From assembly GCA_008080615.1 (NCBI GenBank), contig VIKJ01000001.1:16647-56914 (forward strand): a stretch of 40,268 nucleotides of DNA, given 5' to 3'. Made by a program: the position numbers and the translations under genes. The DNA is from Chitinophagaceae bacterium. GTDB taxonomy: Bacteria > Bacteroidota > Bacteroidia > Chitinophagales > Chitinophagaceae. Each line of letters starts with the position of its first letter. The first letter of the stretch is position 1. This document shows positions 9,613 to 38,837 of the stretch, piece by piece. The notes under the pieces were generated by a model, which was given only the letters and a program-made list of their open reading frames with translations, was not told the DNA's origin and made no database searches.

Positions 9613-9640
9613 AAAATAGTTGCATAACTAACTATTTTTG
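9613..9640 (+). promoter_or_regulatory. Inverted-repeat operator overlapping the -7 element of the fadN-like gene
   Basis: AAAATAGTT-N8-AACTATTTT; the right arm overlaps TATTTTTG (9633-9640), which matches TAnnTTTG. Confidence 0.55.
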
Positions 9641-9673
9641 CCATTCAATCTAACTACGTATAAATTGATACAA

Positions 9674-12003
9674 ATGCAACGTTCTATTAAAAAAGTAGCG
9701 GTTTTAGGAAGTGGAGTAATGGGCTCTAGGATTGCCTGTCATTTTGCAGGCATTGGACTGCCCGTATTATTACTAGATATGGTTCCTGCCACCGCAAAGG
9801 AAAGCACTAAACCAGCAGAAAGGAATAAATTAGTGAATGACGCATTACAAGCTGCTATTAAGAGCAACCCCTCTCCTGTTTTTACCAAACAAGTAGTGAA
9901 CAAAATTAAAACAGGCAATTTTGATGATAACTTAAAAGAGATTGCCAGTTGCGATTGGATCATAGAAGTTGTTGTAGAAAGATTGGATATTAAACAACTG
10001 ATTTACGAAAAAGTAGAGCAGTTTAGAACACCCGGCACTTTAATTACTTCGAATACTTCTGGAATACCCATTCATTTAATGGCCGAAGGAAGATCTGAAG
10101 ATTTTAAAAAGCATTTTTGCGGAACCCATTTCTTTAACCCACCTAGGTATTTAAGGTTGTTGGAAATTATTCCAACCCCACATACTAGCCCCGAAGTGGT
10201 TGATTTTTTAATGCACTACGGAGACCTCCATTTAGGAAAAACAACCGTGTTGTGTAAAGACACGCCTGCTTTTATTGCCAATAGAATTGGAGTATTCAGC
10301 ATCATGAGTATTTTCCATATCATGGATCAACAAAAATTATCTATTGATGAAATTGATGCACTAACCGGGCCAATCATAGGTCGCCCAAAATCGGCTACAT
10401 TTAGAACAGCAGATGTGGTAGGAATTGATACGCTAGTAAAAGTAGCAAAGGGAGTTGCAGACAATTGCCCAACTGATGAAGCCAAAACTATATTCACCAT
10501 TCCAGCATGGTTAGAAAAAATTATTGCGAATAATTGGCTGGGAGATAAAACAGGTCAGGGATTCTTTAAAAAAACCAAGTCGGCAGCAGGCAAAGAAATT
10601 CTTACACTAAACCTTGGTACCATGGAATATGGTGCAAGGGTTAAACCAAAGTTTGCCAGCATTGAAGCAGCTAAACCTGTTGAAGATTTAAAGCAGCGTA
10701 TTAAAATGCTAAGCGGCGCTACGGATAAGGCTGGTGATTTTTACAGAGCATTTCACTTTTCATTGTTTTCATATATCTCTTTTAGAATACCAGAAATTAG
10801 TGATGAGATTTATCGTTTAGATGACGCCATGATGGCTGGATTTGGTTGGGAAATTGGGGCATTTGAAAGTTGGGACACAGTAGGTTTTGCCAAAACAGTA
10901 GAAGCCATGAAAACGGCTGGTATTGAAGTTGCTCCATGGATACATGAAATGCTAGCTGCAGGAATTACTCAATTCTATAAAGTAGAAAATGGTAAGCGCA
11001 TGTATTATGATGTTGCTACCAAAACTTATAAAGTAATTCCTGGTGGAGAATCATTCTTGATCTTAAAAAATCACCATGACAAACTAGTATGGAAAAACTC
11101 CGCTTGCAAAATGACGGATATTGGTGATGGTGTTGCAGGTTTTGAATGGAGCACAAAAATGAATAGCATTGGCGGAGAAGTATTAGAAGGATTAAATAAA
11201 GCCATCGGTATTGCTGAGAATCAATTTAAAGGATTGGTGATTGCCAATGATGGACCCAATTTTAGTGCTGGTGCCAATGTTGGAATGATCTTTATGTTGG
11301 CCATAGAACAAGAGTATGATGAGTTAGATATGGCCATCAGAATGTTTCAAAATAGCATGATGCGTTTGCGTTATTCATCTATTCCTGTAGTTACAGCCCC
11401 TCATGGCTTAGCATTGGGAGGTGGTTGTGAAATAAACCTGCATGCAGACAAAGTATGTGCTGCTGCAGAAACCTATATAGGATTGGTTGAATTGGGCGTT
11501 GGACTGATACCTGGTGGTGGTGGTACTAAAGAATTTGCTTTAAGAGCCGGAGATGAATTACATGACGACGAACCAGAAACCAACACATTAAAAAAACGAT
11601 TTTTTGCCATTGCTACTGCTAACCTGGGCAAGATGAAGTAGTGATGAATATTGGCAGAAGAATAGCAGAAGCTAAAAAAAGTGTACTTGAATTGCATGAG
11701 CAGGGCTATAATATACCAGCTGCACGCAATGATGTAAAAGTAGTAGGACGTGCAGGATTAGGCGCAATGCTTGCAGGCATTAATGGGATGTGGCGTGGTG
11801 GATACGCAACAGATCACGACGCATTAGTGGCACGCAAATTGGCCTATGTAATGTGTGGTGGAGATTTGAGCGAACAAAGTTTAGTGAGCGAACAATACCT
11901 ATTAGATTTAGAAAGGGAGGCATTCTTAAGCCTTTGCGGTGAAAAGAAAACCCTTGAAAGAATTCAAAGTGTATTGAAAAGTGGCAGACCTATTCGCAAT
12001 TAA
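9674..12003 (+). pseudogene. fadN: 3-hydroxyacyl-CoA dehydrogenase / enoyl-CoA hydratase fusion (FadN-like), frameshifted at ~11622 (true pseudogene or assembly error)
   Basis: VAVLGSGVMG, TSNTSG, THFFNP, FIANRIG and a crotonase part (FSAGAN, LGGGCE, LIPGGGG). The C-terminus (LDLEREAFLSLCGE...GRPIRN) continues in another frame from 11623. Confidence 0.85.
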
Positions 12004-13568
12004 CGAATACTGTATATAATCCAGTTATTGGTTTCAAAAACCCTGTAGGTAGATAGCTTCAGTCTTTCCTTCATGATGCCAATATTATAGGCATTTAATA
12101 CGGTAAAGTTGTGCAAGCGATTGTTTCTTTTTGCCACCACAATATATTGTGCTGTAAGTACAGGATTCTCAATAACTGTAACAAAGCTTTTTTGCATTGG
12201 CAGCACCAGGCCATCTAAAGTTTGCAAGTGTGCAACTATACCAAAAGCAGAAGCATCATCAATTAATACTGGGGTTTTATTGGTAGCAACTGTTGCCACA
12301 TAATCTGCAACCTGTTGCAATTCCGAACTCTTTTTTGGTTCAAAAACTTGTTCAACCTTAGTAAGAGAAGATAAAAAATCTTGCTCTTCTTGATCATTGG
12401 TTTCATTAAAATAGTAAACACCAGCAAATAAGCTCAAAACGGTTGTACCTACAAGCAATATTGGAGTAAGTTTTTTTCCAAACCTTTCAGCACCAAAAAA
12501 AGTAAGTGCCGCTATTCCAATTAAATTAATGATGATATAATATTCTACCGTAAAATAATATTTTACATCTACCAATATAATAGAGAAAAAAATCAACGGT
12601 GTTAAAATGGTAAATAGCTCATATAATTTACCTCTGAATAAAATAAGCGAGAGAATAAATAAGGGGGCTAAAAAAACGGTGAATGTTTGAAAAATAATTT
12701 GGGTTTGCATGGAAATATTGCTTCCATTTACACCTTCCAAAATGGTATTTAATGCAGTGGTTCCTGTAACGCGCCAGTTGGCATATTGACTAGTTAAAAA
12801 ATAAGTTGCATCCCCTGCGTGAGCTGCATTGAGCGTTCTGAAAAGGTATACAGCGCCAAGCGGTAACAAGAATAAAATCAAATACAGGGCAACTGTTCTA
12901 TTGGCTAATTTACGGCGAAGTGACCGATTGTTTAATGCTTGAAAATATTGAAAAACAAAGGGCTCTTCTTTGGATACTTTAATGCCCTCAATAGAAATCA
13001 ACATTACAAATGGAAAGAAAGAAAGCAACATCCATAGAAAATTAATTTCTGTAAAAATTAGCCCCGTTAAATAAATACTAGCGAGTGACAAATAATAGGT
13101 TGTTTGACTTTTATAGTAGTTAAATAAACTTCTGAATAGCATATAAAAAAACAACATAATACCAGCTACGTTTCTACCACTAACCGCAGAAAAAATAAAC
13201 ATTGGATGAAGAAAAAACAAAATAGTAATACAGATGAACAATGTTTTAATTGGTAAATTAGAATCATTAATATCTTTTACCATAAAAAAATACAACACAC
13301 TCATCATTACAATTGATGTAGCAATAGGAGCAAATAAATAGCCAAAGGGAGAGAAAACAATAGAGCCTATGAAAAATGTACTTGGATAAGTTGTTCCAAG
13401 TGTAAGCAATGTATTTTCCTTGTATTCAAAAAGTAATTTTAATTTTTCTGCATAGAACAAACTTTCGGAATGTTCATACCCGCTTCTATGCAATAGCCAA
13501 GCCATTATGATATAGTAAAATACCAGCAGCAATGAAACGATTCGTATTTGGCTATTTGATATACGCAT
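12000..13568 (-). CDS. Polytopic membrane protein, GT-C / PMT (GT39)-like architecture
   Basis: About ten or more hydrophobic segments, an acidic first loop (GYEHSESL) after TM1 and a soluble C-terminal domain (VLIDDASAF). Translationally coupled (TAATG) to the GT2. Confidence 0.55.
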   Translation of the reverse strand: MRISNSQIRIVSLLLVFYYIIMAWLLHRSGYEHSESLFYAEKLKLLFEYKENTLLTLGTTYPSTFFIGSIVFSPFGYLFAPIATSIVMMSVLYFFMVKDINDSNLPIKTLFICITILFFLHPMFIFSAVSGRNVAGIMLFFYMLFRSLFNYYKSQTTYYLSLASIYLTGLIFTEINFLWMLLSFFPFVMLISIEGIKVSKEEPFVFQYFQALNNRSLRRKLANRTVALYLILFLLPLGAVYLFRTLNAAHAGDATYFLTSQYANWRVTGTTALNTILEGVNGSNISMQTQIIFQTFTVFLAPLFILSLILFRGKLYELFTILTPLIFFSIILVDVKYYFTVEYYIIINLIGIAALTFFGAERFGKKLTPILLVGTTVLSLFAGVYYFNETNDQEEQDFLSSLTKVEQVFEPKKSSELQQVADYVATVATNKTPVLIDDASAFGIVAHLQTLDGLVLPMQKSFVTVIENPVLTAQYIVVAKRNNRLHNFTVLNAYNIGIMKERLKLSTYRVFETNNWIIYSIR

Positions 13569-15415
13569 TATTCTTTGTTTGCATTTTCAACAGCTGCTAC
13601 TGCCGCTGCTGCGGATGCCGAATGTGATACTTTTGTTAACCCATGATTGGTTTTTTCCCAATAGAAGGGCTTATAAATCAATTGCCATAATCCTTTATAA
13701 GCTGCAATAGAGTGCATCAGCCAATAAAATGGATTCAACATGGCAAATAAAATCAGCTCGTAATACCTTCTTTTAAATACAGCCAACATATTGATGTAAA
13801 TCATTAAAGTATTCCCAGCTATAAAGTTGAAAATAGAAATATATAAAACCCAGTCGGGGAATAAAATTTTTACCGATTGCAAATCAAAGATTAAATACAC
13901 TGCATAAAATGAAAGCAATACAGGATACAACAAAAACGTAATAGGCGTAAAGCTTACAAAGAAGTTAAATCCAAAGAAACCCCTCCAACCAATTTTACCT
14001 ACCAGCTTTACCGGATTACGCATATGTACAAGGGTTGTTTGCATATAGCCTTTAATCCATCTGGAGCGCTGGCGAATCCAGTTAAAAGGTTCATTATTGG
14101 CTTCCTCTAATGTGGTACTATTTACTACCCCTACCTTGTATCTTTTTTCAAATACCCTCAACCCCAAATCGGCATCTTCCGTAACGTTAAATGGATCCCA
14201 TCCGCCCAATTCCCTTAATTTATCTAGTTTAAAGTGATTAGAAGTTCCGCCCAATGGAATAGGTACGTCTAGGGATTGTAATCCAGGCAACATATAGTCG
14301 AACCAATAAGAGTATTCCAATGTAAACATACGGGTAAGTACGTTTTCATTTTTATTGAAATAATTTAATGCGCCTTGTAAAACAATATAGTCTTTGGGAA
14401 GTTTCCTAAATAAACAAACTACTTTTTTAAGTTGGTCAGAATCGGGTACATCTTCGGCATCATAAATAGTAAGGTATTTACCCTTACAATAGAATAACCC
14501 ATAGTTACAGGCTTTGGGCTTTGTTTTGGGCATGTGAAAAGGAACCACAATGGTTTCGAAGTTGGCAGGAAAATCTAGATTTCTTACCGCATTGAGGGTT
14601 TTATCATCATCCTCTTCAATCAATAATTTAACGTCTAGTTTTCCTCTGGGATAATCTAAACTTCGTAGGTTCCAAATGAGCTTACGAATGAGTTTGTCTT
14701 CTTTATATACGGGAAGTAAAATGGTATAAACAGGAAGACTATCATTTTCAATCAACTTTAATTCGGCCTTGGTTACAGTTTCTTGTAATTCATACCTAGA
14801 GCCTTTTAAGGCAATGTATAATTTAAATAGAATCGCAAACAAAAAGAAACCGCTAAAAAAGAGGTTGAAGAAAATGAAAATATTTACAAAATTGATGGTT
14901 AGTAATGCCAATGATAAGGCAATAAAAAAGAAGATAAAAACCAATTGGGCATCAGTAAACGTAATCAACCCAGAACTATCTGGATCTTTTTTCATCAAAC
15001 TAAATACCGCTTCTTTTACAAAAAACTCTCCACGCAATTTGTGCACCATCCAAGTAATATCCAAATCGGAAGCAGCTACAAATTTTACTTTTAAATTGAA
15101 TTTAATTTCGAGTGTACTTTGCAATTTTTCATCCAACGGATCGGCAGCTGCTACAATTAAATTTCCTTTACCATCATTGCGGATGGGTAAAAACAAATAG
15201 GCATTCAATTGAATTAAATCACATTGTTCTACAAAGGATTCATCAATTACTTCATTTCTTACATCAATTAACGGAAACCCTGCCCTATCCAAAAAAGACA
15301 CATAATCTTTTCGGGTAAGAAAGCCAAAGTTCAATGCTGCCTTGATATTGGCATAGTCGAACTCTTCGGCAATCTGCTCTATTTGCTGCAGCTTACCTGT
15401 TGTGAACAAGCCCAC
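13568..15415 (-). CDS. Processive family-2 glycosyltransferase (polysaccharide synthase) with an N-terminal T2SSE_N/MshEN-like domain
   Basis: LLPVYKE, EEDD, KTKPKACN, YDAED, LGGTSNHF, TEDAD and RQRSRW give the D,D,D,QxxRW set, with flanking TM helices. The N-terminal LFLPI...LIVAAADP...VAAS pattern is that of GspE/PilB N-domains. The start is uncertain. Confidence 0.88.
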   Translation of the reverse strand: MGLFTTGKLQQIEQIAEEFDYANIKAALNFGFLTRKDYVSFLDRAGFPLIDVRNEVIDESFVEQCDLIQLNAYLFLPIRNDGKGNLIVAAADPLDEKLQSTLEIKFNLKVKFVAASDLDITWMVHKLRGEFFVKEAVFSLMKKDPDSSGLITFTDAQLVFIFFFIALSLALLTINFVNIFIFFNLFFSGFFLFAILFKLYIALKGSRYELQETVTKAELKLIENDSLPVYTILLPVYKEDKLIRKLIWNLRSLDYPRGKLDVKLLIEEDDDKTLNAVRNLDFPANFETIVVPFHMPKTKPKACNYGLFYCKGKYLTIYDAEDVPDSDQLKKVVCLFRKLPKDYIVLQGALNYFNKNENVLTRMFTLEYSYWFDYMLPGLQSLDVPIPLGGTSNHFKLDKLRELGGWDPFNVTEDADLGLRVFEKRYKVGVVNSTTLEEANNEPFNWIRQRSRWIKGYMQTTLVHMRNPVKLVGKIGWRGFFGFNFFVSFTPITFLLYPVLLSFYAVYLIFDLQSVKILFPDWVLYISIFNFIAGNTLMIYINMLAVFKRRYYELILFAMLNPFYWLMHSIAAYKGLWQLIYKPFYWEKTNHGLTKVSHSASAAAAVAAVENANKE

Positions 15416-15428
15416 ACCATTTAAGCCA

Positions 15429-17453
15429 TTAAATAATTTCCTGTGATTTTTTCACACGCTTTCTTACAAAGAAGAACGCAGCAATCAACAGGAGCACCAA
15501 GCCACCCAGTATAAAAAACTTATAGTTATTCCAAATAATTGCCAAACTGTTTTTATCCCCTCTATAAGTTACAATACCCGAGTTATCTGGCAACTTAAAG
15601 AAGAAATTACTCTTACCCTTACTATTGGCCACACATACATTGCTTTCAATAGAAGAATACTGAGATCCAAAGCTTTTGATAACCCCTTCAAAGGCATCAC
15701 TTACGAGGCTATCTCCTAAAGAAGTAACTACTAAGAAAGTGGTTTGCCCTTGTTTAAATATTTGCGCAATACCACTATTAGCAAAGTCATTGATAGAATA
15801 AGAGGTTTGCCCGCTTACATCTTTATACAACTGAAAATCTTTATTAAATTGAACCGGTAGTGAAGTACTAAAGTTCTTAATAAAGGCATCATTTCGATGG
15901 GTAAGAACAATGGCATTGTAGTTTCTTAAATCTTCCATAGAAGCTTTATCGGTAGAAACCATTTCAGGAATACTGAGGTAATTAGCTACCACTGTTGTTG
16001 TATTCAGTTGCGTAATTAATTGACCCATTGAAGATGCCAATTGAGGAATCAGCGAAGGGCTAACAATAAACTTCAACGCACGCTTGCGGAATTCACCAGG
16101 ATAGTTAAAGAAATTATAGAATTCATTGGCTTTTTCACCCGAGAAAATAAGGCTAGATGTTTTAACATCTATGAATCCAAAGAAATTGGCAAAGCCCTCT
16201 TTACAAATATTACCTGCACCATGAAAACGCATTTCAACTACTAATGAATTGTTTTTAGTAAGTAAGTACGGCTTTAAATCAATATCACCAACAAAGCTGG
16301 TTTTATCGTGTAAATCTGTACTAAATACCAGGTTCTCATTTAAGTAAACGTTTAAGAAACCCCTATCACCCTTATTTAAAAGAGACAACATGGCTTCTAA
16401 GTGAAAAGTGAGTTTTTTTGGAATGGCATTGTAATCGGCCAGTGAAAATGCATAGTTTGTTTTCAATGCGCCAATACCTTCCATAATTCTAGGCGTTCCG
16501 CCTAACTCTTCCAAAGAGAAAACAACTGGCAATGGATTTTTATCGAAATAATGTGGAATACCATTGTCAATAACCATTTTGGTAGAGAAACTGCTATTGA
16601 TGATTTTATAATTACAGAGTGTATTGATTGCTTTTTTATAACCTTCCTGATCTTTACCAGAAACTACCAATACATGCCTGCTATCCCCATAAGGCTGAAG
16701 GTTCATAATAATACCCTGCCCATTTTGAATATCGGGTAATTGGTTTCGGATGAAGGCAGGTAATTTACTAATCAAACCTGTAATAATGGTATTGCTTACT
16801 GTATCAGATTCACTGTAATTATCCGTTACAATCTCATCCAGAGAAGCTTTTTGCTTGATCAATGCATACAATACACCTCCTGACAATAAATCGTCTAAGT
16901 CGGCACTTTTTGGCGTACTGATACGATTGTATTCTAAAATGGTTTCTTTTAAACTATAATTAAACGAAGCGGCGTCTTGTTTTCTCAAAGACAAAAAACT
17001 AGAGTTTCTTACTGTTAACCAAATGGCAGGATTGTCTACATCTTTACAATATTCATCCGACATGGCCATTTTAGCATCTACTCGCATTTTAATGAAACGA
17101 CCATCTGGCTGAACAAAACGCTTGTCTAAAGGTATCTCGATGGTCATCACAGAATCCAGGGCGGTGAATTCTAAACGCTGGGTAAATACAGGCTCATCCC
17201 TTAAAGACACAGTTACAGCAGAGATATTTTTATTCAATACCTGTGAAGGACGAACTTTCAATACCAGTTTACTATTGTTGATATCGTCTCTGGGCTGCAA
17301 CTTTAAAAAGTAAGTGAGTGCACCAGCAATACCGGTGATAGACTCATTGCGGTAACCCATATCTTCCAATGAACGCAGTTGGGCGTATTCCTGGCCAAAT
17401 AAGCCAGACATTGTTAACGCGAACAACATCAATAGGGTAAGTTTCGATTTCAT
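15429..17453 (-). CDS. BcsB-like periplasmic co-polymerase subunit
   Basis: Signal peptide ending ...GLFG|Q; two similar beta-rich modules (SLEDMGY.../SLEELGG...; VTVSLRDEPV/LNVYLNENLV); CKDVDNPAIWLTVRNSSFL motif typical of BcsB; C-terminal TM anchor with a basic tail. Confidence 0.75.
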   Translation of the reverse strand: MKSKLTLLMLFALTMSGLFGQEYAQLRSLEDMGYRNESITGIAGALTYFLKLQPRDDINNSKLVLKVRPSQVLNKNISAVTVSLRDEPVFTQRLEFTALDSVMTIEIPLDKRFVQPDGRFIKMRVDAKMAMSDEYCKDVDNPAIWLTVRNSSFLSLRKQDAASFNYSLKETILEYNRISTPKSADLDDLLSGGVLYALIKQKASLDEIVTDNYSESDTVSNTIITGLISKLPAFIRNQLPDIQNGQGIIMNLQPYGDSRHVLVVSGKDQEGYKKAINTLCNYKIINSSFSTKMVIDNGIPHYFDKNPLPVVFSLEELGGTPRIMEGIGALKTNYAFSLADYNAIPKKLTFHLEAMLSLLNKGDRGFLNVYLNENLVFSTDLHDKTSFVGDIDLKPYLLTKNNSLVVEMRFHGAGNICKEGFANFFGFIDVKTSSLIFSGEKANEFYNFFNYPGEFRKRALKFIVSPSLIPQLASSMGQLITQLNTTTVVANYLSIPEMVSTDKASMEDLRNYNAIVLTHRNDAFIKNFSTSLPVQFNKDFQLYKDVSGQTSYSINDFANSGIAQIFKQGQTTFLVVTSLGDSLVSDAFEGVIKSFGSQYSSIESNVCVANSKGKSNFFFKLPDNSGIVTYRGDKNSLAIIWNNYKFFILGGLVLLLIAAFFFVRKRVKKSQEII

Positions 17454-17470
17454 AGAGTAGGTATTTAGAA

Positions 17471-18838
17471 CTAAGCCAGTTTGAATTTCAATTTAAAATA
17501 GTTGCCAATTGTAGGATTGCTTTCATAAGTAAGCAGTCCTCCCATATCTGTTGTAAGCTGTTTTGCTACAGAAAAGCCCATACCCGATTGGGTAATGGCA
17601 TATTCCGACTGATTGGGAGCTTGCAGCCTATTAAAGTATTCATCTAGTTTTTCTAATCCGATAGGATTGCCTTTATTGATAATTTCAATAATACAAACCC
17701 CATCTACATTTCCTGCATGAATACTTATGGCAGAACCCTTTTGGATAAACCTTATAACGTTAGAAAGTAGCTTAAACAATATATGACGTAAAAATATTTT
17801 ATCTAAGTTGACCAATAATTCGGAAGGCGATAAGTGAACTTGTATGGTTACCTGCTTAATACTTGCAGCATCAACCAAGGCAATTGCGGCTTTTTCAACC
17901 TCAGGAATAATATCAAAATCTTCAAAACGGTATTCAATTTTACCTGTATCTGCTTCTGCAGATTCGGCCAGTTTTTGAGATAAATAATGGAGTTTCTCAT
18001 TCCCCATGGTTATATAGCTCAAAATTTCTTTCTGATCAGAAGTAAGGTTACTAGATTTTCGATTGATCAAATCGATAGAGATTTGATTAGATCCTATGAA
18101 GTTTTTTAAATCATGGATCATGATATTGAGGGTATTCTGCCTGTAATCACTTAATTCTTTCAACCGGCGGTTGGCTTCTTCAATTAAATGATGCTGGTCA
18201 TTGATTTTCTCATTTTGCTCTAACATTCTACGGTTAGATTCTTCAATAATGAGGTTTTTCTCTGTTTCTCGCTTAATAATTTGGTACCGGTTAAAAGCTA
18301 TGAAACAAGAAAAAGCAGTAACGATAAAATAAACACCGCCCCCATTGGCAATTAAGCCATTATAACCTTCCAATCGGTTATTAAGGGTATAAAGTAATAC
18401 AATGATTGTATAGGAAATAGCACAATGCAATTGGGCAAACAAAGGCCTCCAAAATACCGTGGTATTTAGCAATAGCATCATTACTGAAGCCATTAAAAAA
18501 TAAGGAAGTGCGCTTGTTACCGGAACAATTCCACAAATCAAAGAAAATAGGACTACATTAACTCCAACAATTAGGTTGAGAATCAATTCATAACTTAGTC
18601 TTCTTCTGGTTCCATAGGTGTACAAAAAATAAGACAAGGCAAATGCTGATACTCTTAATACCAAAATAAAGCCCCAGTCTTCTTTCATAAAAAGAATATC
18701 CAGCAACCAGAATAGTGGCAGAGAAAACAGTATTGACCAAACAGCTACATTTGAAAAGTACGCGCCGCGTTTATTCAATTCGGTAGTAAGCTTTTGGCGG
18801 TCTATATTTACATAAGGAATCCTATGATAATCTATCAT
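17471..18838 (-). CDS. Membrane sensor histidine-kinase-like protein with degenerate catalytic boxes
   Basis: About 6 TM helices, a coiled coil, H-box IHDLKNFIG and an HATPase-like region (KLLSNVIRF, INKGNPIG, SGMGFSVAK, MGG). Confidence 0.85.
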   Translation of the reverse strand: MIDYHRIPYVNIDRQKLTTELNKRGAYFSNVAVWSILFSLPLFWLLDILFMKEDWGFILVLRVSAFALSYFLYTYGTRRRLSYELILNLIVGVNVVLFSLICGIVPVTSALPYFLMASVMMLLLNTTVFWRPLFAQLHCAISYTIIVLLYTLNNRLEGYNGLIANGGGVYFIVTAFSCFIAFNRYQIIKRETEKNLIIEESNRRMLEQNEKINDQHHLIEEANRRLKELSDYRQNTLNIMIHDLKNFIGSNQISIDLINRKSSNLTSDQKEILSYITMGNEKLHYLSQKLAESAEADTGKIEYRFEDFDIIPEVEKAAIALVDAASIKQVTIQVHLSPSELLVNLDKIFLRHILFKLLSNVIRFIQKGSAISIHAGNVDGVCIIEIINKGNPIGLEKLDEYFNRLQAPNQSEYAITQSGMGFSVAKQLTTDMGGLLTYESNPTIGNYFKLKFKLA

Positions 18839-18851
18839 ATTTACAAATATG
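18836..18851. promoter_or_regulatory. 16-bp palindrome CATATTT-AC-AAATATG joining two divergent start codons
   Basis: Perfect 7-bp inverted repeat whose outer triplets are the ATGs of the kinase-like gene (-) and the GH5 gene (+). Confidence 0.45.
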
Positions 18852-19943
18852 CAACAGGTAATTGATTATTCAGTGAAATTAAAGTTTAAAAATAGAAGAA
18901 AGGCATTCATTTTGACCAGTTTATTGACATTTGTTAGTTTCTTTTTCTCCGTTTTTGCTGCAGAGAGAACTGATCTAAATAAAATCAAGACTGCACTCAA
19001 TAAAGGCGTTAATATTTCGTACCTAGAAATAGACATCGAACCCAAACTAAAAGCCATTGCAAAAGCAGGCTTTAAAACAGTTCGATTGCCTGTGGCATTT
19101 GATCATTATATGGCTGATAGCTATGCAGAGCTGAGTGGTGCATTAATTCAAAAACTACATTTAATCTATAGCAGGTGCAAGCAGCTAAATTTAAACCTGG
19201 TAATCGTATACCATTATGGCAAACTACAAAATGAAAATTTATACGCAGAAAATGATCGAATTATTCGGATATGGAAACAAGTGATATATTCTATGCAAGG
19301 CTATGCTAGCAATCAACTTTTTTTTGAACTATACAATGAACCAACTACCGATATGGATATATGGAAATCTTCCATCACTACCATTGTTAGGGAATTGAGA
19401 AAAGCAGACCCAGAGAGGATATTTATTATTGGTGGGGCCAATTACAATGGCTACAACGAATTACTGCATATGGGCAGGTTATCGGTAGATGATGGAAAGC
19501 TCTTGTACACATTTCATTTTTACGAACCATATATTTTCACCCATCAGGGTGCAGATTGGACGGCGGAAAAAACTTTTATTACAGGATTCCCCTACCCTTA
19601 TAAACAAAATAAAATGCCAGGCTTATACAATGCCCCTGCTAATTCTTCATTGGCTAAAGATTACGAGAGGTACCCAAGGGAAGCCAATTATTCCTACCTA
19701 CATCAACGTATTCAATATATTTACGAGGAAGCTAAAAGGCTAAATTTACCGCTTATCTGTACAGAAACGGGGGTAATCAATTTAGCCGATAAAAAATCCA
19801 GAGCTGCTTATCTTAGCAATATCACTTCTATCATGAATGAGTTTAGTATCCCCGTAATTTTATGGGATTGGGACGACAAGTTTGCTGTGATGGATAACAA
19901 TAAAGCCATCAAACAGATTAGACCCTGGCTCAAAAAAGATTAG
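18849..19943 (+). CDS. Secreted glycoside hydrolase family 5 (cellulase superfamily)
   Basis: GVNIS, GFKTVRLPV, acid/base ELYNEP, TFHFYEPYIFTHQGADW, nucleophile TETG and LWD; signal-peptide-like N-terminus (alternative GTG start at 18873). Confidence 0.9.
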   Translation: MQQVIDYSVKLKFKNRRKAFILTSLLTFVSFFFSVFAAERTDLNKIKTALNKGVNISYLEIDIEPKLKAIAKAGFKTVRLPVAFDHYMADSYAELSGALIQKLHLIYSRCKQLNLNLVIVYHYGKLQNENLYAENDRIIRIWKQVIYSMQGYASNQLFFELYNEPTTDMDIWKSSITTIVRELRKADPERIFIIGGANYNGYNELLHMGRLSVDDGKLLYTFHFYEPYIFTHQGADWTAEKTFITGFPYPYKQNKMPGLYNAPANSSLAKDYERYPREANYSYLHQRIQYIYEEAKRLNLPLICTETGVINLADKKSRAAYLSNITSIMNEFSIPVILWDWDDKFAVMDNNKAIKQIRPWLKKD

Positions 19944-19958
19944 AATAAAAACAACTGT

Positions 19959-20855
19959 ATGGAACCTGTTTTATCAATAAACGGCATAAGCAAATCTTAT
20001 GGCCAAATTAAGGCGCTTAAAAACCTATCATTAAGCGTTCCTAAAGGAAGTGTATTTGGCATTTTAGGACCAAACGGTAGTGGCAAAACTACTATGATGA
20101 GTATCATTTTGGATATTCTAAAAGCAGATAGTGGTGATTACAATTGGTTTGGGAAACCCAACTTACCCGAAGAAAGAAAAAGAATTGGATCCTTGTTAGA
20201 AACGCCCAATTTTTATCATTACTTATCTGCCGTTGATAATTTAAAAATTACACAGGCCATTAGTGGAAGAGGACATGCTGCAGATATTGATGAAGCACTT
20301 GAGATTGTAAAACTAACGGAGAGAAAGAAAAGTAAGTTTAGTGCTTATAGTTTAGGAATGAAGCAACGCCTTGCCATTGGTGCAGCATTACTGGGCAATC
20401 CAGAAGTACTGTTATTAGATGAACCTACCAATGGGCTTGATCCAGTTGGTATTGCTGAAATCAGAGACCTCATTAAATTGTTGGCAAAAAAAGGCATCAC
20501 TATTATTATTGCAAGCCACTTATTAGATGAAGTTGAAAAAATTTGCTCTCATGTAGCCATTTTAAAAAGAGGAACCCTGCTTACATCAGGCCCTGTTGAT
20601 GAAGTGTTGAGTAATGAAGATATTGTAGAAATAGCTTCTGCCAATATGGAACAACTAAAAGATTGCGTAATACAAATGGGCGGTTATTTATCTATAAAAG
20701 AAGACAATCAACGATTGCAAATTCATTATCCTATCGGTACAGCCAATATGGAAGCCATTAATAGTTATTGCTTTAACAAGGGCGTTACATTGCAATTATT
20801 GCTCAGCAAGAAAAAGAGTTTAGAAACTAAATTCTTTGAATTAACCAACGATTAA
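19959..20855 (+). CDS. ABC-2 type transporter ATP-binding protein (BcrA-like)
   Basis: GPNGSGKTT, YSLGMKQRL, LDEPTNGLDP and SHLL motifs. Confidence 0.9.
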   Translation: MEPVLSINGISKSYGQIKALKNLSLSVPKGSVFGILGPNGSGKTTMMSIILDILKADSGDYNWFGKPNLPEERKRIGSLLETPNFYHYLSAVDNLKITQAISGRGHAADIDEALEIVKLTERKKSKFSAYSLGMKQRLAIGAALLGNPEVLLLDEPTNGLDPVGIAEIRDLIKLLAKKGITIIIASHLLDEVEKICSHVAILKRGTLLTSGPVDEVLSNEDIVEIASANMEQLKDCVIQMGGYLSIKEDNQRLQIHYPIGTANMEAINSYCFNKGVTLQLLLSKKKSLETKFFELTND

Positions 20856-20865
20856 ACTTACACCC

Positions 20866-21693
20866 ATGCTCGATTTATTAAAAATAGAATGGCTTAAAAT
20901 AAAAAAATACCCTGCATTCTGGTGGATGTTGGTAATTGTATTCCTTACCTATCCTGGCATTAATATTATGTTCTTGAATATTTATGGGCAGGTAACCAAA
21001 GGAAAAGAGATGGCCAATAATATTGCCAAATTATTGTTAGGCAACCCGTTTGCATTTCCCGAAACTTGGCATACAGTAGCCTATTTTTCTTCCTTCTTTG
21101 TATTGTTACCTTCCATTTTGGTAATCATGTTGGTGACCAATGAATACAATTATAAAACACATAGGCAAAATATTATTGATGGCTGGAGCCGATCACAATT
21201 TATTACCAGTAAATTAATGGATGTTGCCATTATTTCCTTTGTAGTAATGATTGCATATATAGCTGTTGCAATAGGTTTTGGTATATATGCAGATAGCCTT
21301 AGCTGGAACAGATGGGCCGAGCAACTACAATATATCCCTCTGTTTTATTTACAAACATTTGCGCAGTTATCCATTGCATTTTTATTGGGATACCTAGTTA
21401 AGAAAGCATTCATTGCCTTGGGCATCTTTTTATTTTACTACTTAATTGTAGAGAATATATTAGTAGGATTAATGAAATGGAAAAAGATAGAACTCACCCG
21501 CTTTTTACCATTTGAAATTTCTGATGGCATTTTGGTAAGGCCTGCATTTTCTGGAAATTTTGGTATGGGCGCCAAAGCAGGATATGAACTTGCATTGAGT
21601 TTAGTATCACAACAAGTGATACTCACTATTGTGCTAACTAGTATTATTTGGTTAATCTGCTATAAGGTGCATAAGAAAAGAGATATTGTATAA
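20866..21693 (+). CDS. ABC-2 type transporter permease
   Basis: LLKIEWLK start, about 6 TM helices, NEYNYKTHRQNIIDGWSR...SKL motif; adjacent to the ATPase. Confidence 0.85.
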   Translation: MLDLLKIEWLKIKKYPAFWWMLVIVFLTYPGINIMFLNIYGQVTKGKEMANNIAKLLLGNPFAFPETWHTVAYFSSFFVLLPSILVIMLVTNEYNYKTHRQNIIDGWSRSQFITSKLMDVAIISFVVMIAYIAVAIGFGIYADSLSWNRWAEQLQYIPLFYLQTFAQLSIAFLLGYLVKKAFIALGIFLFYYLIVENILVGLMKWKKIELTRFLPFEISDGILVRPAFSGNFGMGAKAGYELALSLVSQQVILTIVLTSIIWLICYKVHKKRDIV

Positions 21694-22708: not shown

Positions 22709-24610
22709 TTAGTCGGGTTTTTTACCATCAAAAAATTTATTGATAGTAGAGATCTGGGTTTGATCATTTTCATCCTTACCTACTGTATACTTACTGTAAA
22801 AATTTTCTACCGAAGTAAGGGTATTGCCAAATAATTCCATGTTTCTTCTAATATAAGCTGGCACCGCATCAAACTCACCACTTGTATCGGCTGTGTTACT
22901 CATATTATAAGAAAGGTTACGTAATTTTTGTATACGCTCAGCAGCCCTTCTTTTTTGATCTTCAACATCATCCATAAAAGAATCTTCTGCGTATTGCGAT
23001 TGTGGTTGATGCTGATGTTGCGGCTGTTCTTGCTGGGCTTTTACTTCCTGCATCATTTCAGCCGATTTTTCTACCAATTGCATTTCGAATAATGCTTCTT
23101 CTTGTTGAACAGGAGCAGGTGGTGCAGGAGCCGGTTGAGCTGCAGGCATTTGAATTGACACTACAGCAGGTTCAGGTTTAACTTCTTCCGCATAAATATT
23201 GGCGGGCTTGGTTAAAAAACCTGCACTATTTACAATACTAGGTTGTTCGTTTACCTGAAAATTGAGTAAAGGTGAAATTGCTGGCTCTTCTAAGTTGATT
23301 TCCGCTTCAACAACAGGCACATCAGGAGTAATTGGTGCTGTAATATCGGCGCTCAATTCAAATTGCAATACCATCGATTCTCTTTCTTCAACAGCATGTT
23401 GAGTTGCAATTTCTGCAATGTGCTGCTCTTCCTGTGGTTGCTGCATAGTTGGAGCAAGCTCATCTAATATAGCAATTACGGGAGCAGGCATTTCTATTTT
23501 GTTAACTGCAACTGGCTCGGGCTCAACAACAGCTTGAACCTGAGGTTGCACAGGAGTTTGCAAAGCTTCAACTTCTAAAGTCATTACAATTTTCTCCGGC
23601 TTTACTTCAGGAACTTTTGCCGCTTGTGGCTTTGCAAAAGGATCTTTGTGTTCAAAACCAGTAGCAATTAATGTGATGCCAATTTTTTTATCTAAAGTAG
23701 GATCATACCCCATTCCAACAATTACATCTGTGTCTTCACCTGCTTGCATGCGCAAGTAATTATTGATGGTTTCTAATTCATCCATGGTGCATTCATGATC
23801 TCCTTCTGCACTATTGATATTAATTAAAATCCACTTAGCACCTCTAATATCGCTGTCATTTAACAGCGGTGAATTCAATGCTTCTTCTATAGCTAGCTGT
23901 GCTCGGTTCTCTCCCTCTACTTCGGCCTTTCCTAAAATAGCAACACCACCATTTTTCATAACAGTGCATACATCGGCAAAATCTACAATAATATGCCCAC
24001 GGCTATTGATTACATCGGTAATACATTTTGCTGCAGTAGCCAATACATTGTCTGCTTTTGAAAATGCTTCTTTCATTTTCAAATTACCGTATTGCATGCG
24101 CAGTTTGTCGTTGCTAATTACTAGTAAAGTATCTACAAATGGCTTCAACGCCTCAATACCTTCCTGTGCTTGTTGATGTCGACGAGGTCCTTCAAAACCA
24201 AATGGCGTTGTTACTATACCAACGGTTAAGATGCCTAGTTCTTTACAAATTTTTGCAATGATGGGTGCACCACCAGTACCAGTTCCACCGCCCATTCCTA
24301 CAGTTATGAATGCCATTTTGGTATTCACTTCTAAAATGCGCTTGATTTCTTCTAGCGACTCTTCGGTTGCTTTTTTTCCTACTTCAGGATTAGCACCAGC
24401 ACCCAAGCCCTGTGTAAGGTGCGGCCCCAATTGAATTTTATTAGGAATATCGCTTTGCTCAATTGCTTTAGCGTCGGTATTGCATATAATGAAATCAACA
24501 CCTTCAATATTTTGAGCAAACATAAAGTTTACTGCATTGCTTCCACCACCACCAACACCCAACACTTTAATGATGGATGATTTTTGTTTGGGAAGATCAA
24601 AATGAATCAT
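22709..24610 (-). CDS. ftsZ: Cell division protein FtsZ (long Bacteroidota-type linker)
   Basis: GVGGGGSNAV, GMGGGTGTG, DFADV and C-terminal VPAYIRR motifs. Confidence 0.98.
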   Translation of the reverse strand: MIHFDLPKQKSSIIKVLGVGGGGSNAVNFMFAQNIEGVDFIICNTDAKAIEQSDIPNKIQLGPHLTQGLGAGANPEVGKKATEESLEEIKRILEVNTKMAFITVGMGGGTGTGGAPIIAKICKELGILTVGIVTTPFGFEGPRRHQQAQEGIEALKPFVDTLLVISNDKLRMQYGNLKMKEAFSKADNVLATAAKCITDVINSRGHIIVDFADVCTVMKNGGVAILGKAEVEGENRAQLAIEEALNSPLLNDSDIRGAKWILININSAEGDHECTMDELETINNYLRMQAGEDTDVIVGMGYDPTLDKKIGITLIATGFEHKDPFAKPQAAKVPEVKPEKIVMTLEVEALQTPVQPQVQAVVEPEPVAVNKIEMPAPVIAILDELAPTMQQPQEEQHIAEIATQHAVEERESMVLQFELSADITAPITPDVPVVEAEINLEEPAISPLLNFQVNEQPSIVNSAGFLTKPANIYAEEVKPEPAVVSIQMPAAQPAPAPPAPVQQEEALFEMQLVEKSAEMMQEVKAQQEQPQHQHQPQSQYAEDSFMDDVEDQKRRAAERIQKLRNLSYNMSNTADTSGEFDAVPAYIRRNMELFGNTLTSVENFYSKYTVGKDENDQTQISTINKFFDGKKPD

Positions 24611-24658
24611 AGAGTAGTTTTAGTAGGGTTAGTATTTTATGCTACGGATCTTGGATTA

Positions 24659-26029
24659 TTATCGAATAACTTGGTCTTCTTCTTCTTTAAACAAATCAAT
24701 CAAATTGTTTTTAAATTTATCCCAGAAGCGTTCTTTTCGCGCAGTTACATCTACGGTAGTTGCAACAGGCGCTTCTTCTTCTTTTACCAATGCTGCTTTT
24801 TTGGTTAAGCCTTCTGGCACTTCAACTTTAGCAAATTTTTCTGCAAACTCTTTGTATTTATGCTCGTAGTCGTTGTATCCTTTCAGAATCAATCCAATAC
24901 AAGTAGCATACATTGGCTTTTTCAATTCATCAATATGATTGGCTGCTAAATGTTCATTAGGTAAACCAATGCGCGCATTTAACCCAGTTGTGTATTCGGT
25001 TAACTGAATTAAATGTTTTAATTGAGAACCGCCACCTGTTAAAATGATACCACCATTTAAAGCACGATGATCTAAGCCAACTTGCTTTAAGTGATAAGTA
25101 ACAAAATCTAATATTTCGCCCATTCTAGCTTGAATAATGGCAGCCAGGTTTTTAACACTTATTTCTTTTGCAGGCATGCCTTTTAAACCAGGGATGGTGA
25201 TATAAGCATTCGCTTTAGCTTCGTCTGCTAATGCAGAACCAAACTGTACTTTCATAGCTTCGGCCTGGCTTTTTAATACACCCAATCCCATACGGATATC
25301 ATTGGTAATATTTTCACCACCAAAAGGAATAACAGCAGTATGCTTTAAAATTCCTTCATAAAATACCGCTAAGTCACTGGTACCGCCACCAATATCTAAT
25401 ATGGCTACACCCGCTTCCATATCTATCTCACTCATTACAGCACTAGCAGAAGCTAGTGGTTGAAGTACCAAATCTTTGGTTTTTAACCCACTTCTATCTA
25501 CTGCACGGTGAATATTTCTAATGGCATTTCTATCTCCTGTGATAATATGAAAATTAGCACCCACTTTAACTCCATTGTATCCTACAGGATCTTTTATATT
25601 TTGAATGCTATCCACATGAAAATCCTGAGAAATCACATCAATGATTTGATCTCCGGCAGGAATAAATGTTTTGCGTTGATTATTGATGAGTTGGTCTATT
25701 TCCCAGCTTTGAATTTCTACATCGGGATCTTGACGAACAATATCTCCACGGGTTTGCAGGCTCTTGATATGATGCCCGGCAATACCTACATATACTTCAG
25801 AAATTTCTAAATCGGGATTGCTTTGAGCGCAGTTTTCTAATGCGGCCTGAATAGCTTTAATGGTTTGGTCTATATTCAACACTTGACCATGTTGAACCCC
25901 ATTGCTATTGGCACGTCCAAAGCCTAGAATCTCTAGTTTTCCATATTCATTTTTGCGCCCAGCGATAGCCGCAATTTTAGTGGTTCCGATATCCAGACCA
26001 ACAATGATGGGTGATTCATTGTGATTCAT
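24659..26029 (-). CDS. ftsA: Cell division protein FtsA
   Basis: GLDIGTTKI, DIGGGTSD, GGENITNDI and LTGGGSQL motifs. Confidence 0.97.
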   Translation of the reverse strand: MNHNESPIIVGLDIGTTKIAAIAGRKNEYGKLEILGFGRANSNGVQHGQVLNIDQTIKAIQAALENCAQSNPDLEISEVYVGIAGHHIKSLQTRGDIVRQDPDVEIQSWEIDQLINNQRKTFIPAGDQIIDVISQDFHVDSIQNIKDPVGYNGVKVGANFHIITGDRNAIRNIHRAVDRSGLKTKDLVLQPLASASAVMSEIDMEAGVAILDIGGGTSDLAVFYEGILKHTAVIPFGGENITNDIRMGLGVLKSQAEAMKVQFGSALADEAKANAYITIPGLKGMPAKEISVKNLAAIIQARMGEILDFVTYHLKQVGLDHRALNGGIILTGGGSQLKHLIQLTEYTTGLNARIGLPNEHLAANHIDELKKPMYATCIGLILKGYNDYEHKYKEFAEKFAKVEVPEGLTKKAALVKEEEAPVATTVDVTARKERFWDKFKNNLIDLFKEEEDQVIR

Positions 26030-26040
26030 AAGGTATGTAT

Positions 26041-27021: not shown

Positions 27022-27024
27022 TGA

Positions 27025-29471: not shown

Positions 29472-29475
29472 TTGC

Positions 29476-30771: not shown

Positions 30772-30772
30772 A

Positions 30773-32113: not shown

Positions 32114-32119
32114 GTTTAT

Positions 32120-33430: not shown

Positions 33431-33434
33431 GCTA

Positions 33435-34910: not shown

Positions 34911-34924
34911 ATGCCTGTTCAAAA

Positions 34925-37036: not shown

Positions 37037-37045
37037 TCTTATTTT

Positions 37046-37372: not shown

Positions 37373-37382
37373 ATATTTTTTA

Positions 37383-38749: not shown

Positions 38750-38771
38750 TTGGGTATAAATATTTTCCAAG

Positions 38772-38812
38772 ATTACCACTTGTTGACACAAAATAACACT
38801 TTTTCCCACTTT
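38772..38812 (-). promoter_or_regulatory. MraZ operator: four GTG-core direct repeats at a 10-bp period
   Basis: The minus strand reads AAGTGGGAAA AAGTGTTATT TTGTGTCAAC AAGTGGTAAT; CAC occurs at 38777, 38787, 38797 and 38807. Confidence 0.8.
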
Positions 38813-38837
38813 TTTACGCATATTGGGAGGGTTGTAT

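What the first reader, a model, noticed from the sequence alone, without database searches (positions are those of the whole stretch)
12000..19943. Candidate undescribed synthase-dependent polysaccharide system: pseudo-kinase + BcsB-like + MshEN-like GT2 + GT-C-like + GH5
Seen: four tightly packed minus-strand genes (17-nt gap, then TAATG junctions) encode a sensor-kinase-like protein, a BcsB-like periplasmic protein, a processive GT2 with the complete D,D,D,QxxRW set, and a polytopic GT-C-like protein. A secreted GH5 with both catalytic glutamates is transcribed divergently. Known: synthase + co-polymerase + periplasmic hydrolase is the logic of Bcs, Pel and Alg systems, but BcsB normally pairs with PilZ-bearing BcsA, a GH8 (BcsZ) and BcsC. 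This GT2 belongs instead to the KTKPKA/LGGTSNHF subfamily, which from memory resembles Xanthomonas XagB-type and NfrB-like enzymes (unverified). Inference: a hybrid machine making a beta-linked, possibly side-chain-decorated glycan in a Bacteroidota, a phylum better known for Wzy-type capsules. I know of no characterised system with this gene set; novelty needs a search.
Basis: partly seen in the sequence, partly recalled or inferred. Interest (0 to 1): 0.88.

Follow-up and report, generated by a model that had tools for sequence, protein, structure and literature searches.

The report
Kinase-linked xag/sfz-type polysaccharide synthase
These five genes are a real, tightly conserved cluster that likely makes and exports a surface sugar polymer; its core matches an already published but biochemically unsolved gene family, and what sets this Bacteroidota version apart is that its hosts almost all lack c-di-GMP-making enzymes and carry a degenerate sensor kinase that may control it instead.

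Summary
The five genes are real. Their identities mostly hold: BcsB fold, N-terminal MshEN + GT2, GT-C fold, GH5, and a kinase with a degenerate ATP lid.

The core is not undescribed. BcsB + MshEN-GT2 + ~500-aa membrane protein + hydrolase is the published 'xag-like'/sfz cassette (Kato 2015; Koeksoy 2021), whose polymer is unknown. This scan also met that family earlier on other DNA.

What I did not find in print is this Bacteroidia variant:
- The kinase-like gene precedes BcsB in 75 of 75 loci.
- A GH5 replaces the GH113-like enzyme.
- The MshEN motif is degenerate, and 24 of 25 carrier genomes lack GGDEF proteins (a family-wide trait).
- An outer-membrane barrel lies at a second locus, usually beside an acetyl-esterase-like gene. 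The barrel is in 25 of 25 carriers and 0 of 26 non-carriers.

Best reading: a c-di-GMP-independent synthase exporting a likely O-acetylated beta-glycan. Neighbouring mannanase-family and GDP-mannose genes in distant loci hint at mannan or glucomannan (about 40%).

The window has small assembly dropouts in the GT2 start, the GH5 and fadN. Verdict: new variant of a known kind.

The parts
17471..18838 (-). Membrane sensor-kinase-like protein (455 aa): MASE-like N-terminal membrane domain, intact H-box (H242, DxxN), degenerate G1/G2 ATP lid; putative regulator of the synthase
   Evidence: Pfam HATPase_c; motif census over 70 homologues; N-terminus resembles unnamed and MASE-type clusters, a lead only; precedes BcsB in 75 of 75 loci; N-terminal domain in 24 of 25 carriers and 0 of 26 non-carriers
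15429..17453 (-). BcsB-fold periplasmic co-polymerase (674 aa) with signal peptide and C-terminal membrane anchor
   Evidence: PF03170; AF2 model and Foldseek match to E. coli BcsB, TM 0.62; anchor helix at 645-663
13568..15415 (-). XagB/Sfz2-type processive GT2 with N-terminal MshEN-fold domain whose c-di-GMP motif is degenerate; true start lies in a 43-nt assembly dropout at 15419/15420
   Evidence: by-eye match to Sfz2 in the supplement of PMC8250860
12000..13568 (-). GT-C-fold polytopic membrane protein (522 aa), Sfz3/XagC-like; near-constant partner of this GT2 subfamily
   Evidence: AF2 model and fold searches; follows GT2 in 62 of 62 Bacteroidota loci with room and in 52 of 80 (first HMM) to 78 of 80 (iterated HMM) metagenome loci
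18849..19943 (+). Secreted GH5 endo-beta-glycanase (closest solved: FnCel5A, EngH, TmCel5A-type, CcsZ-type), divergent; likely start GTG 18873; about 10 codons missing at 19027/19028 in this assembly
   Evidence: adjacent in 53 of 66 loci with room; in 23 of 25 carriers and 0 of 26 non-carriers
18873..18881 (-). Candidate Bacteroidota -7 promoter-like box (TAATTTCAC) about 30 nt before the kinase start; inferred
   Evidence: similar TTCAC element upstream of the kinase in many of 67 loci, including some that lack the GH5; the strict TAnnTTTG pattern was not found upstream of the window's kinase start

Best explanation
The cluster is a Bacteroidia variant of the xag-like/sfz synthase cassette that likely polymerises a beta-linked, probably O-acetylated surface glycan and exports it without c-di-GMP control.

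Shown here: the folds and domains of the five proteins, their conserved order, the co-occurrence of an unlinked barrel and esterase, the lack of GGDEF genes in most hosts, and the degenerate MshEN and ATP-lid motifs.

Inferred mechanism:
(1) The GT2 adds sugars from a nucleotide-sugar donor in the cytoplasm and pushes the chain across the inner membrane. With only about 4 predicted membrane helices it probably needs the BcsB anchor and the GT-C-fold protein to complete the channel.
(2) BcsB guides the chain in the periplasm.
(3) The GT-C-fold protein acts on the periplasmic face, as a structural or lipid-binding partner, or by anchoring or decorating the chain.
(4) An acyltransferase-3 and AXE1-type esterases from the second locus set acetylation.
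(5) The GH5 trims or clears stalled chain.
(6) The ~280-aa outer-membrane barrel is the exit.
(7) The kinase-like protein, with an intact His/DxxN helix but a degenerate ATP lid, gates the synthase as a sensor, phosphatase or scaffold in place of c-di-GMP.

Polymer odds: beta-1,4-mannan or glucomannan about 0.4, a beta-glucan about 0.35, other about 0.25.
For: Folds.
Motifs.
Synteny: kinase 75 of 75, GT2 71 of 71, GT-C 62 of 62, GH5 53 of 66 among the 80 best of 122 GTDB loci.
Barrel: strong match (E <= 1e-27) in 25 of 25 Chitinophagaceae carriers and 0 of 26 non-carriers. It lies in or directly beside the operon in L118, L121, L122, L145, L146.
Esterase: E <= 1e-50 in 21 of 25 carriers and 0 of 26 non-carriers. 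It is beside the barrel in 16 of 20 fetched regions, and an acyltransferase-3 in 6 of 20. L145 holds kinase, BcsB, GT2, GT-C, acyltransferase, esterase and barrel in one run.
GGDEF: 1 of 25 carriers.
MshEN: the Gly of the second MshEN motif is Ile/Val in 62 of 62 Chitinophagaceae GT2s, against Gly in 32 of 47 BcsB-linked metagenome GT2s.
Mannan hints: GH113 in 18 of 80 metagenome loci and L159; GH26 near L145; ManC-type GDP-mannose pyrophosphorylase first in the Geobacillus operon L158 and near 2 of 80 loci; phosphomannose isomerase beside sfz (PMC8250860); GH5_25 enzymes act on mannan and glucan (PMC7710045 passages); Xanthomonas mannanase ManA is implicated in biofilm dispersal while xag is needed for biofilm (PMC3528676 passages).
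Against: - No polymer, activity or expression datum exists for this locus.
- The barrel and esterase were not found in the window's own genome (64% complete). Contig C75 ends 3-6 kb short of where relatives carry them.
- No mannose-pathway gene neighbours any of the 80 Chitinophagaceae loci. GH5_25 is also a cellulase family, and its member CcsZ serves a cellulose system.
- Lack of GGDEF is family-wide (0 of 26 non-carriers too), so it is not specific to the system.
- No response regulator lies in the 80 loci.
- The GT-C first-loop acid (E32/E35) is not conserved across the wider family, and no lipid-sugar donor gene is in the loci.
- Carriers are kin and the non-carriers were hand-picked from no-match lists, so the co-occurrence counts are not independent trials.
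- Homology to Sfz2-5 was judged by eye, and Xanthomonas Xag sequences were not obtained.
Confidence: 0.68

Rival explanations
1. The GT2 and GT-C-fold protein form a lipid-linked glycan pathway. The GT2 builds a short glycan or glycolipid and the GT-C transfers it to a lipid, protein or periplasmic acceptor, so the product stays cell-bound.
For: GT2 plus GT-C-fold gene is the near-invariant pair (78 of 80 metagenome loci with the iterated HMM), while BcsB (47 of 80) and barrel (34 of 80) are variable, though many contigs are cut short. The GT2 has only about 4 predicted helices. The Ferriphaselus xagB-like gene was auto-annotated as a glucosyldiacylglycerol synthase (PMC4643136 passage).
Against: Full TED and QxxRW processive motifs are invariant or nearly so. 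An endo-glycanase, a BcsB and an outer-membrane barrel co-occur tightly in Bacteroidota, which suits a long exported chain. The GT-C catalytic acid is not conserved.
Confidence: 0.17
2. It is a divergent cellulose (beta-1,4-glucan, perhaps acetylated) synthase like the clostridial Ccs system, with GH5 in place of BcsZ.
For: True BcsB fold; BcsA chains are the best solved sequence matches of the GT2 (E 5e-10); the GH5 matches cellulases including the 6UJE endoglucanase; CcsZ is a GH5_25 expected to act on O-acetylated cellulose (PMC7710045 passages).
Against: CelA model 58 bits against a cut-off of 699; no PilZ, GH8 or BcsC in the loci; the GT2 is 42-64% identical to GT2s whose loci carry GH113, GH26 or ManC genes; Ferriphaselus has a separate bcsABZC set besides its xag-like cassette (PMC4643136).
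Confidence: 0.1
3. The kinase-like gene is an ordinary active sensor kinase that controls transcription of the operon through a response regulator encoded elsewhere, and has no direct role at the synthase.
For: His242 68 of 70, Asp243 70 of 70, Asn360 70 of 70 and the last G2 Gly 70 of 70 are kept; one distant homologue (L119) keeps the G1 Asp and scores HisKA and HATPase_c; stand-alone receivers lie near L121 and L145.
Against: G1 Asp is Asn in 66 of 70 and the first G2 Gly is mostly Gln; no regulator in 80 loci; other versions of the cassette carry a receiver + degenerate-GGDEF adaptor rather than a DNA-binding regulator.
Confidence: 0.25

Closest known systems
sfz1-6 / sfb1-4 'stalk formation' cassette of Zeta- and Betaproteobacteria (Koeksoy 2021, PMC8250860) = 'xag-like' CDS9-12 (Kato 2015, PMC4643136)
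   Same: Order BcsB-like, T2SSE_N(MshEN)+GT2, ~500-aa membrane protein; same GT2 subfamily motifs (TKPKACN, LGGTSNHF, QRSRW, WEKT); Sfz3 shares the HPxF..A.SG stretch with the 522-aa protein; Sfz5 looks like the same barrel family (by eye); product unknown in both.
   Different: Here a kinase-like gene leads the operon; the hydrolase is a divergent GH5, not the Sfz4 type (GH10 in the paper, GH113-like by eye); barrel and acetylation genes are at a second locus; no Sfz6/CotH gene seen in the 80 loci; MshEN motif degenerate and hosts mostly lack GGDEF proteins.
Xanthomonas xagABCD (biofilm polysaccharide, uncharacterised; PMC3528676, PMC3609779 passages; original Tao 2010 not read)
   Same: Linked through Kato 2015, who call the Ferriphaselus genes xagB, xagC and xagD-like; genetic evidence for a biofilm polysaccharide of unknown structure.
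   Different: No Xanthomonas sequence was obtained, so the link is second-hand; xag is regulated by c-di-GMP through Clp; that xagA is the barrel is my inference.
Bacterial cellulose synthase Bcs (BcsA/B/Z/C) and clostridial Ccs (CcsZ GH5_25; PMC7710045)
   Same: BcsB fold, processive GT2 motifs, periplasmic endo-glycanase; Ccs also uses a GH5_25.
   Different: No PilZ, GH8 or TPR-barrel BcsC; a different GT2 subfamily, far below the CelA cut-off; extra GT-C-fold subunit and small barrel.
E. coli NfrB/NfrA (N4 glycan receptor; PMC8669472 passages)
   Same: GT2 fused to an MshEN-like domain; exported surface glycan.
   Different: MshEN is C-terminal and c-di-GMP-dependent in NfrB; NfrB model scores 13 bits against 1170; NfrA is a TPR + 16-stranded barrel; no WecB-type gene recurs in these loci.

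Membership tests
xag-like/sfz cassette | BcsB-like protein directly upstream of the GT2 (sfz1) | tested here: met
   GT2 follows BcsB in 71 of 71 loci
xag-like/sfz cassette | N-terminal T2SSE_N/MshEN + GT2 of the XagB/Sfz2 subfamily (sfz2) | tested here: met
   PF05157 + GT2; shared motifs and 55 of 105 identical residues with printed Sfz2, counted by hand
xag-like/sfz cassette | ~500-aa membrane protein after the GT2 (sfz3/xagC) | tested here: met
   522 aa, GT-C fold; motif likeness to printed Sfz3 by eye; HMM links to the same gene in non-Bacteroidota loci. No formal alignment to Sfz3 itself.
xag-like/sfz cassette | Sfz4/XagD-type hydrolase after the membrane gene | tested here: not met
   the hydrolase is a divergent GH5; no such gene follows the GT-C gene in the Chitinophagaceae loci
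xag-like/sfz cassette | Sfz5-type outer-membrane barrel | tested here: inconclusive
   not in this locus and not found in the 64%-complete own genome; present elsewhere in 25 of 25 near-complete carriers; likeness to Sfz5 by eye only
xag-like/sfz cassette | Sfz6 SH3-CotH protein (Zetaproteobacteria only) | not tested
   no recurring gene of that size beside the 80 loci; not searched genome-wide
xag-like/sfz cassette | proposed c-di-GMP control | tested here: not met
   GGDEF in 1 of 25 carriers and not found in the own genome; MshEN Gly replaced in 62 of 62; binding itself not assayed
xag-like/sfz cassette | twisted-stalk or biofilm phenotype | not testable with these tools
   needs cultures and mutants
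Bcs cellulose synthase | BcsA with C-terminal PilZ, above the CelA cut-off | tested here: not met
   no PilZ hit; TIGR03030 57.8 bits against 699.1
Bcs cellulose synthase | GH8 BcsZ and TPR-barrel BcsC in the operon | tested here: not met
   GH5 instead; no such genes recur in 80 loci
Bcs cellulose synthase | BcsB fold | tested here: met
GT-C superfamily transferase | GT-C membrane fold with C-terminal periplasmic alpha/beta domain | tested here: met
   ArnT Z 17.8, rmsd 4.6, 394 aligned; ALG12, AglB and PMT next
GT-C superfamily transferase | conserved catalytic acid in the first external loop and a lipid-linked donor supply | tested here: inconclusive
   E32/E35 near-invariant in close homologues but not in the wider family, where D437 is kept in 56 of 58; no donor-synthesis gene in the loci
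Class I sensor histidine kinase | H-box His with acidic H+1, and N-box Asn | tested here: met
   H 68 of 70, D 70 of 70, N 70 of 70
Class I sensor histidine kinase | G1 DxGxG and G2 GxGxG ATP-binding boxes (consensus recalled) | tested here: not met
   G1 reads NKGNPIG (Asp in 3 of 70), G2 reads QSGMG
NfrB-type synthase | C-terminal MshEN, NF008411 score | tested here: not met
   MshEN at residues 46-129; 13.2 bits against 1170

The most novel reading that the evidence does not exclude
This is a c-di-GMP-independent bacterial synthase for acetylated beta-1,4-mannan or glucomannan, built on an obligate GT2 + GT-C-fold membrane pair and switched by a pseudo-kinase subunit. It would be a synthase-dependent route to a plant-hemicellulose-like polymer in bacteria, and would point to the unknown Xanthomonas xag polymer and the iron-oxidiser stalk matrix being mannans too.
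Probability: 0.2. Interest if true: 0.85.

Novelty: new variant of a known kind. Interest (0 to 1): 0.47.

Why it matters
The xag/sfz polymer is an open question. PMC3528676 asks outright what the Xag polymer and the ManA substrate are, and the stalk organisms' sfz genes are untested.

Cultured Chitinophagaceae among the loci (Sediminibacterium salmoneum NBRC 103935, Sediminibacterium sp. C3, Parasediminibacterium paludis) carry a compact version that should not need c-di-GMP. That makes reconstitution and linkage analysis simpler.

The work also assigns a GT-C fold to the Sfz3/XagC-like subunit, which the paper I read lists as unknown. It ties a barrel and acetylation genes to the system by co-occurrence.

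Homologues of the sfz1-3 core occur in Bacteroidota, a Geobacillus plasmid, a Hyphomicrobiales plasmid and many unnamed metagenome contigs. This is a caution for studies that score sfz genes as markers of stalk formation (PMC12607638 passages).

Tried and rejected
- Sequence search of the GT-C-like profile against solved structures: 0 matches at E <= 10. Only fold comparison placed it.
- Barrel profile against solved structures: one weak 43-column match (E 0.02), not used.
- Atlas look-up of the GT-C-like protein: not answered.
- Sequencing runs: no RNA holder listed, so nothing on expression.
- Literature searches with no paper on this variant: 'Sediminibacterium + cellulose synthase' 0 papers; 'Chitinophaga + glucan synthase + GT2' 1 unrelated listing; 'MshEN + glycosyltransferase + BcsB' 4 listings; Bacteroidetes/c-di-GMP/BcsB/synthase-dependent 1 listing; GH113/BcsB/mannan synthase 5 listings; sfz + Bacteroidota 4 listings. 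The library misses most subscription papers, including Tao 2010. Figures and trees in Kato 2015 and its supplements were not seen and could include Bacteroidota homologues.
- ABC transporter pair 19959-21693 as part of the system: a frequent neighbour (ABC cluster in 59, permease in 52 of 80 loci), but replaced by other genes in several loci such as L085, L098 and L102-L105. Left out as a probable bystander.
- Strict TAnnTTTG promoter scan: no consistent site.
- fadN as a pseudogene: rejected as an assembly dropout.
- GT2 tree (quick IQ-TREE, SH-aLRT only; 16 close Chitinophagaceae rows left out, 82 rows used): the 12 Bacteroidia rows form one starred clade. No donor or transfer order is claimed.
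- A second GH5 on contig C170 outside the window is a paralogue, not part of the locus.

Full report
OBSERVATION. The window is from a 2.0-Mb, 64%-complete genome. Its closest named relatives are labelled Sediminibacterium or Chitinophagaceae. Between fadN and an ABC pair next to the cell-division cluster lie four minus-strand genes and one divergent gene: a 455-aa kinase-like protein, a 674-aa BcsB-like protein, a 615-aa MshEN + GT2, a 522-aa membrane protein without Pfam hit, and a 364-aa GH5. Predicted models settle the two doubtful ones. The 674-aa protein matches E. coli BcsB over its length (E 2e-30, TM 0.62). The 522-aa protein has the GT-C fold (ArnT Z 17.8; ALG12, AglB, ALG3 and PMT follow). 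The GT2 has EEDDD, a DAED variant of DxD, TED and QRSRW; the GH5 has both catalytic glutamates.

ASSEMBLY FAULTS. Contigs of four public runs were laid on 11000-20000 (one may be the source of the DNA). Three of four carry 43 more letters at 15419/15420 and 31 more at 19027/19028. A break at about 11622-11634 explains the split fadN. So the real GT2 start is upstream of the GTG at 15415, the BcsB/GT2 'TAATG junction' is not a start, and the GH5 is about 10 residues longer, as in relatives.

CONSERVATION. A BcsB alignment found 122 relatives in GTDB contigs; the best 80 loci were read. Counting only loci with enough flank, the kinase precedes BcsB in 75 of 75, the GT2 follows in 71 of 71, the GT-C gene in 62 of 62 and the GH5 is divergent in 53 of 66. 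These genomes are kin. The system is patchy: 6 of 36 same-genus genomes, 22 of 300 family genomes and 6 of 400 phylum genomes. All six phylum hits have BcsB directly followed by the same GT2.

MISSING PARTS FOUND ELSEWHERE. Five distant loci (L118, L121, L122, L145, L146) include a ~280-aa protein with weak barrel-family hits (DUF5777, MetA-pathway). I searched its profile in 25 near-complete Chitinophagaceae carriers and 26 hand-picked non-carriers. It matched at E <= 1e-27 in 25 of 25 carriers and in 0 of 26 non-carriers (three weak partial hits). Twenty of these second-locus regions were fetched: an AXE1-type esterase is present in 16 and an acyltransferase-3 in 6, often as tandem esterase-barrel repeats. 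The esterase matches at E <= 1e-50 in 21 of 25 carriers and 0 of 26 non-carriers (three weaker partial hits). The kinase N-terminus gives 24 of 25 against 0 of 26 and the GH5 23 of 25 against 0 of 26. L145 has kinase, BcsB, GT2, GT-C, acyltransferase, esterase and barrel in one run, then a receiver and a GH26. The window's own genome gave no barrel match, but its contig C75 ends inside a gene that lies 3-6 kb from the barrel cluster in G018 and G019.

WIDER FAMILY. The GT2 is 46% identical to one on a Geobacillus plasmid, in the order ManC-type nucleotidyltransferase, BcsB, GT2, GT39-annotated gene. It is 42% identical to one on a Hyphomicrobiales plasmid, with a divergent GH113, BcsB, GT2 and GT-C. 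With the latter as query, the best 80 of at least 588 metagenome loci held GT-C 52, BcsB 47, barrel 34, GH113 18 and ManC 2; many contigs are cut short. An iterated profile that includes many of these sequences found a GT-C-like gene in 78 of 80. A receiver-domain gene cluster occurs in 36 of 80; between GT-C and barrel it is a receiver + degenerate GGDEF. In a quick tree the 12 Bacteroidia GT2s form one clade, and each of these loci has the kinase-like gene.

REGULATION. GGDEF proteins were found in 1 of 25 carriers and, over the cut-off, in 0 of 26 non-carriers; none was found in the own genome. The Gly of the second MshEN motif is Ile or Val in 62 of 62 Chitinophagaceae GT2s but Gly in 32 of 47 BcsB-linked metagenome GT2s. 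In NfrB such glycines are needed for function (PMC8669472, passages). c-di-GMP activation is therefore unlikely here, although its absence is a family trait. The kinase-like protein keeps His242 (68 of 70), Asp243 (70 of 70), Asn246 (68 of 70) and the N-box Asn (70 of 70). It has Asn for the G1 Asp in 66 of 70 and a degenerate G2; the box consensus is recalled. Its membrane domain resembles unnamed and MASE-type clusters (a lead). That it gates the synthase is inference from position and co-occurrence.

MECHANISM. Most likely (0.68 for the whole): the GT2 polymerises and extrudes a beta-glycan with help from the BcsB anchor and the GT-C-fold subunit; BcsB guides it; acyltransferase and esterases set acetylation; the GH5 trims; the barrel exports; the kinase-like protein regulates. 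Each of these roles is inferred. Whether the GT-C-fold protein is catalytic is open: its first-loop acids are conserved only among close homologues and no lipid-donor gene is linked. For the sugar, mannanase-family hydrolases (GH113, GH26), ManC and phosphomannose isomerase neighbours in distant loci, and the dual mannan/glucan activity of GH5_25 enzymes (PMC7710045, passages) favour mannan or glucomannan (about 0.4). No mannose gene is linked in Chitinophagaceae, and a glucan remains nearly as likely. The GH5_25 assignment rests on best solved matches, not on a subfamily model. Rivals are a lipid-linked glycan pathway (0.17), a divergent cellulose synthase (0.1) and, for the kinase alone, ordinary transcriptional signalling (0.25).

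PRIOR ART. Kato 2015 (PMC4643136, passages) describe bcsB + xagBCD-like genes in stalk-forming iron oxidisers. Koeksoy 2021 (PMC8250860; abstract, parts 3-5 of 9 of the text, and supplement text) name them sfz1-6: BcsB-like, T2SSE_N + GT2, an unknown ~500-aa protein, a hydrolase, an unknown protein and SH3-CotH, all untested. The printed Sfz2 shares 55 of 105 residues with window GT2 227-331 (hand count). Sfz3, Sfz4 and Sfz5 look by eye like the GT-C-fold protein, a GH113 and the barrel. Xanthomonas xag is needed for biofilm and its polymer is uncharacterised (PMC3528676, PMC3609779, PMC3826837, PMC3633832; passages only). The core thus works like, and is homologous to, xag/sfz. It fails the hydrolase and c-di-GMP features, so I file it as a variant, not a strict member. 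It is not Bcs or Nfr. My searches found no paper on the Bacteroidota form; subscription papers and unseen figures or supplements could hold one. Three earlier notes of this scan place other DNA in the same family, one with a mannan guess and one with degenerate signalling proteins. I had reached this reading before opening them, and they are not independent evidence.

VERDICT. Real, conserved and partly known: new variant of a known kind, interest 0.47. The upside is a testable, c-di-GMP-free version of an unsolved synthase family.

Noticed in passing
window 9638-12003: fadN-type 3-hydroxyacyl-CoA dehydrogenase/enoyl-CoA hydratase appears split (667 + 120 aa); relatives have one ~791-aa ORF and public contigs carry extra letters at about 11622-11634, so this is an assembly dropout, not a pseudogene.
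   Followed up: yes
window 18838-18849: The divergent kinase and GH5 start codons are only 10 nt apart inside a palindrome (CATATTT-AC-AAATATG); most homologues suggest a GTG start at 18873 for the GH5, so promoters must overlap coding sequence.
   Followed up: partly
window 19959-21693: ABC-2 type ATPase and permease follow the GH5 and stay beside the kinase even in loci that lost the GH5; role unknown, possibly a bystander of the cell-division cluster.
   Followed up: partly
G000:C170:7092-8342 (outside the window): A second GH5 paralogue with a lipoprotein-like signal, about 27 kb from the locus; G018 and G025 hold 4-6 paralogues of this GH5 type.
   Followed up: no
L275-L279, L289: Tandem esterase-barrel(-acyltransferase) repeats, up to three barrel copies, often right after recA (10 of 20 regions hold recA).
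   Followed up: partly
L278, L282, L292: A 1141-1155-aa GH18-like + polysaccharide deacetylase + GT2 fusion lies near the barrel locus in three genomes; possibly a separate polysaccharide synthase.
   Followed up: no
L158 (Geobacillus plasmid CP128455.1): A Gram-positive, conjugative-plasmid copy: ManC-type nucleotidyltransferase, BcsB, MshEN-GT2, GT-C-like gene between mobile-element genes.
   Followed up: partly
L147, L060, L082, L090, L094: Split or truncated kinase, BcsB, GT2 or GT-C ORFs in a few genomes (for example a 211-aa membrane-only kinase in L147); may be assembly errors or decay.
   Followed up: no
L026-L028 context, G026 and G027: Two same-genus genomes hold a different, more distant GT2 of this subfamily (33-34% identity) next to dnaA, without MshEN or BcsB upstream.
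   Followed up: no
window 22709-38845: Ordinary division and cell-wall cluster (mraZ to ftsZ); the FtsZ is long (633 aa), as in relatives.
   Followed up: no
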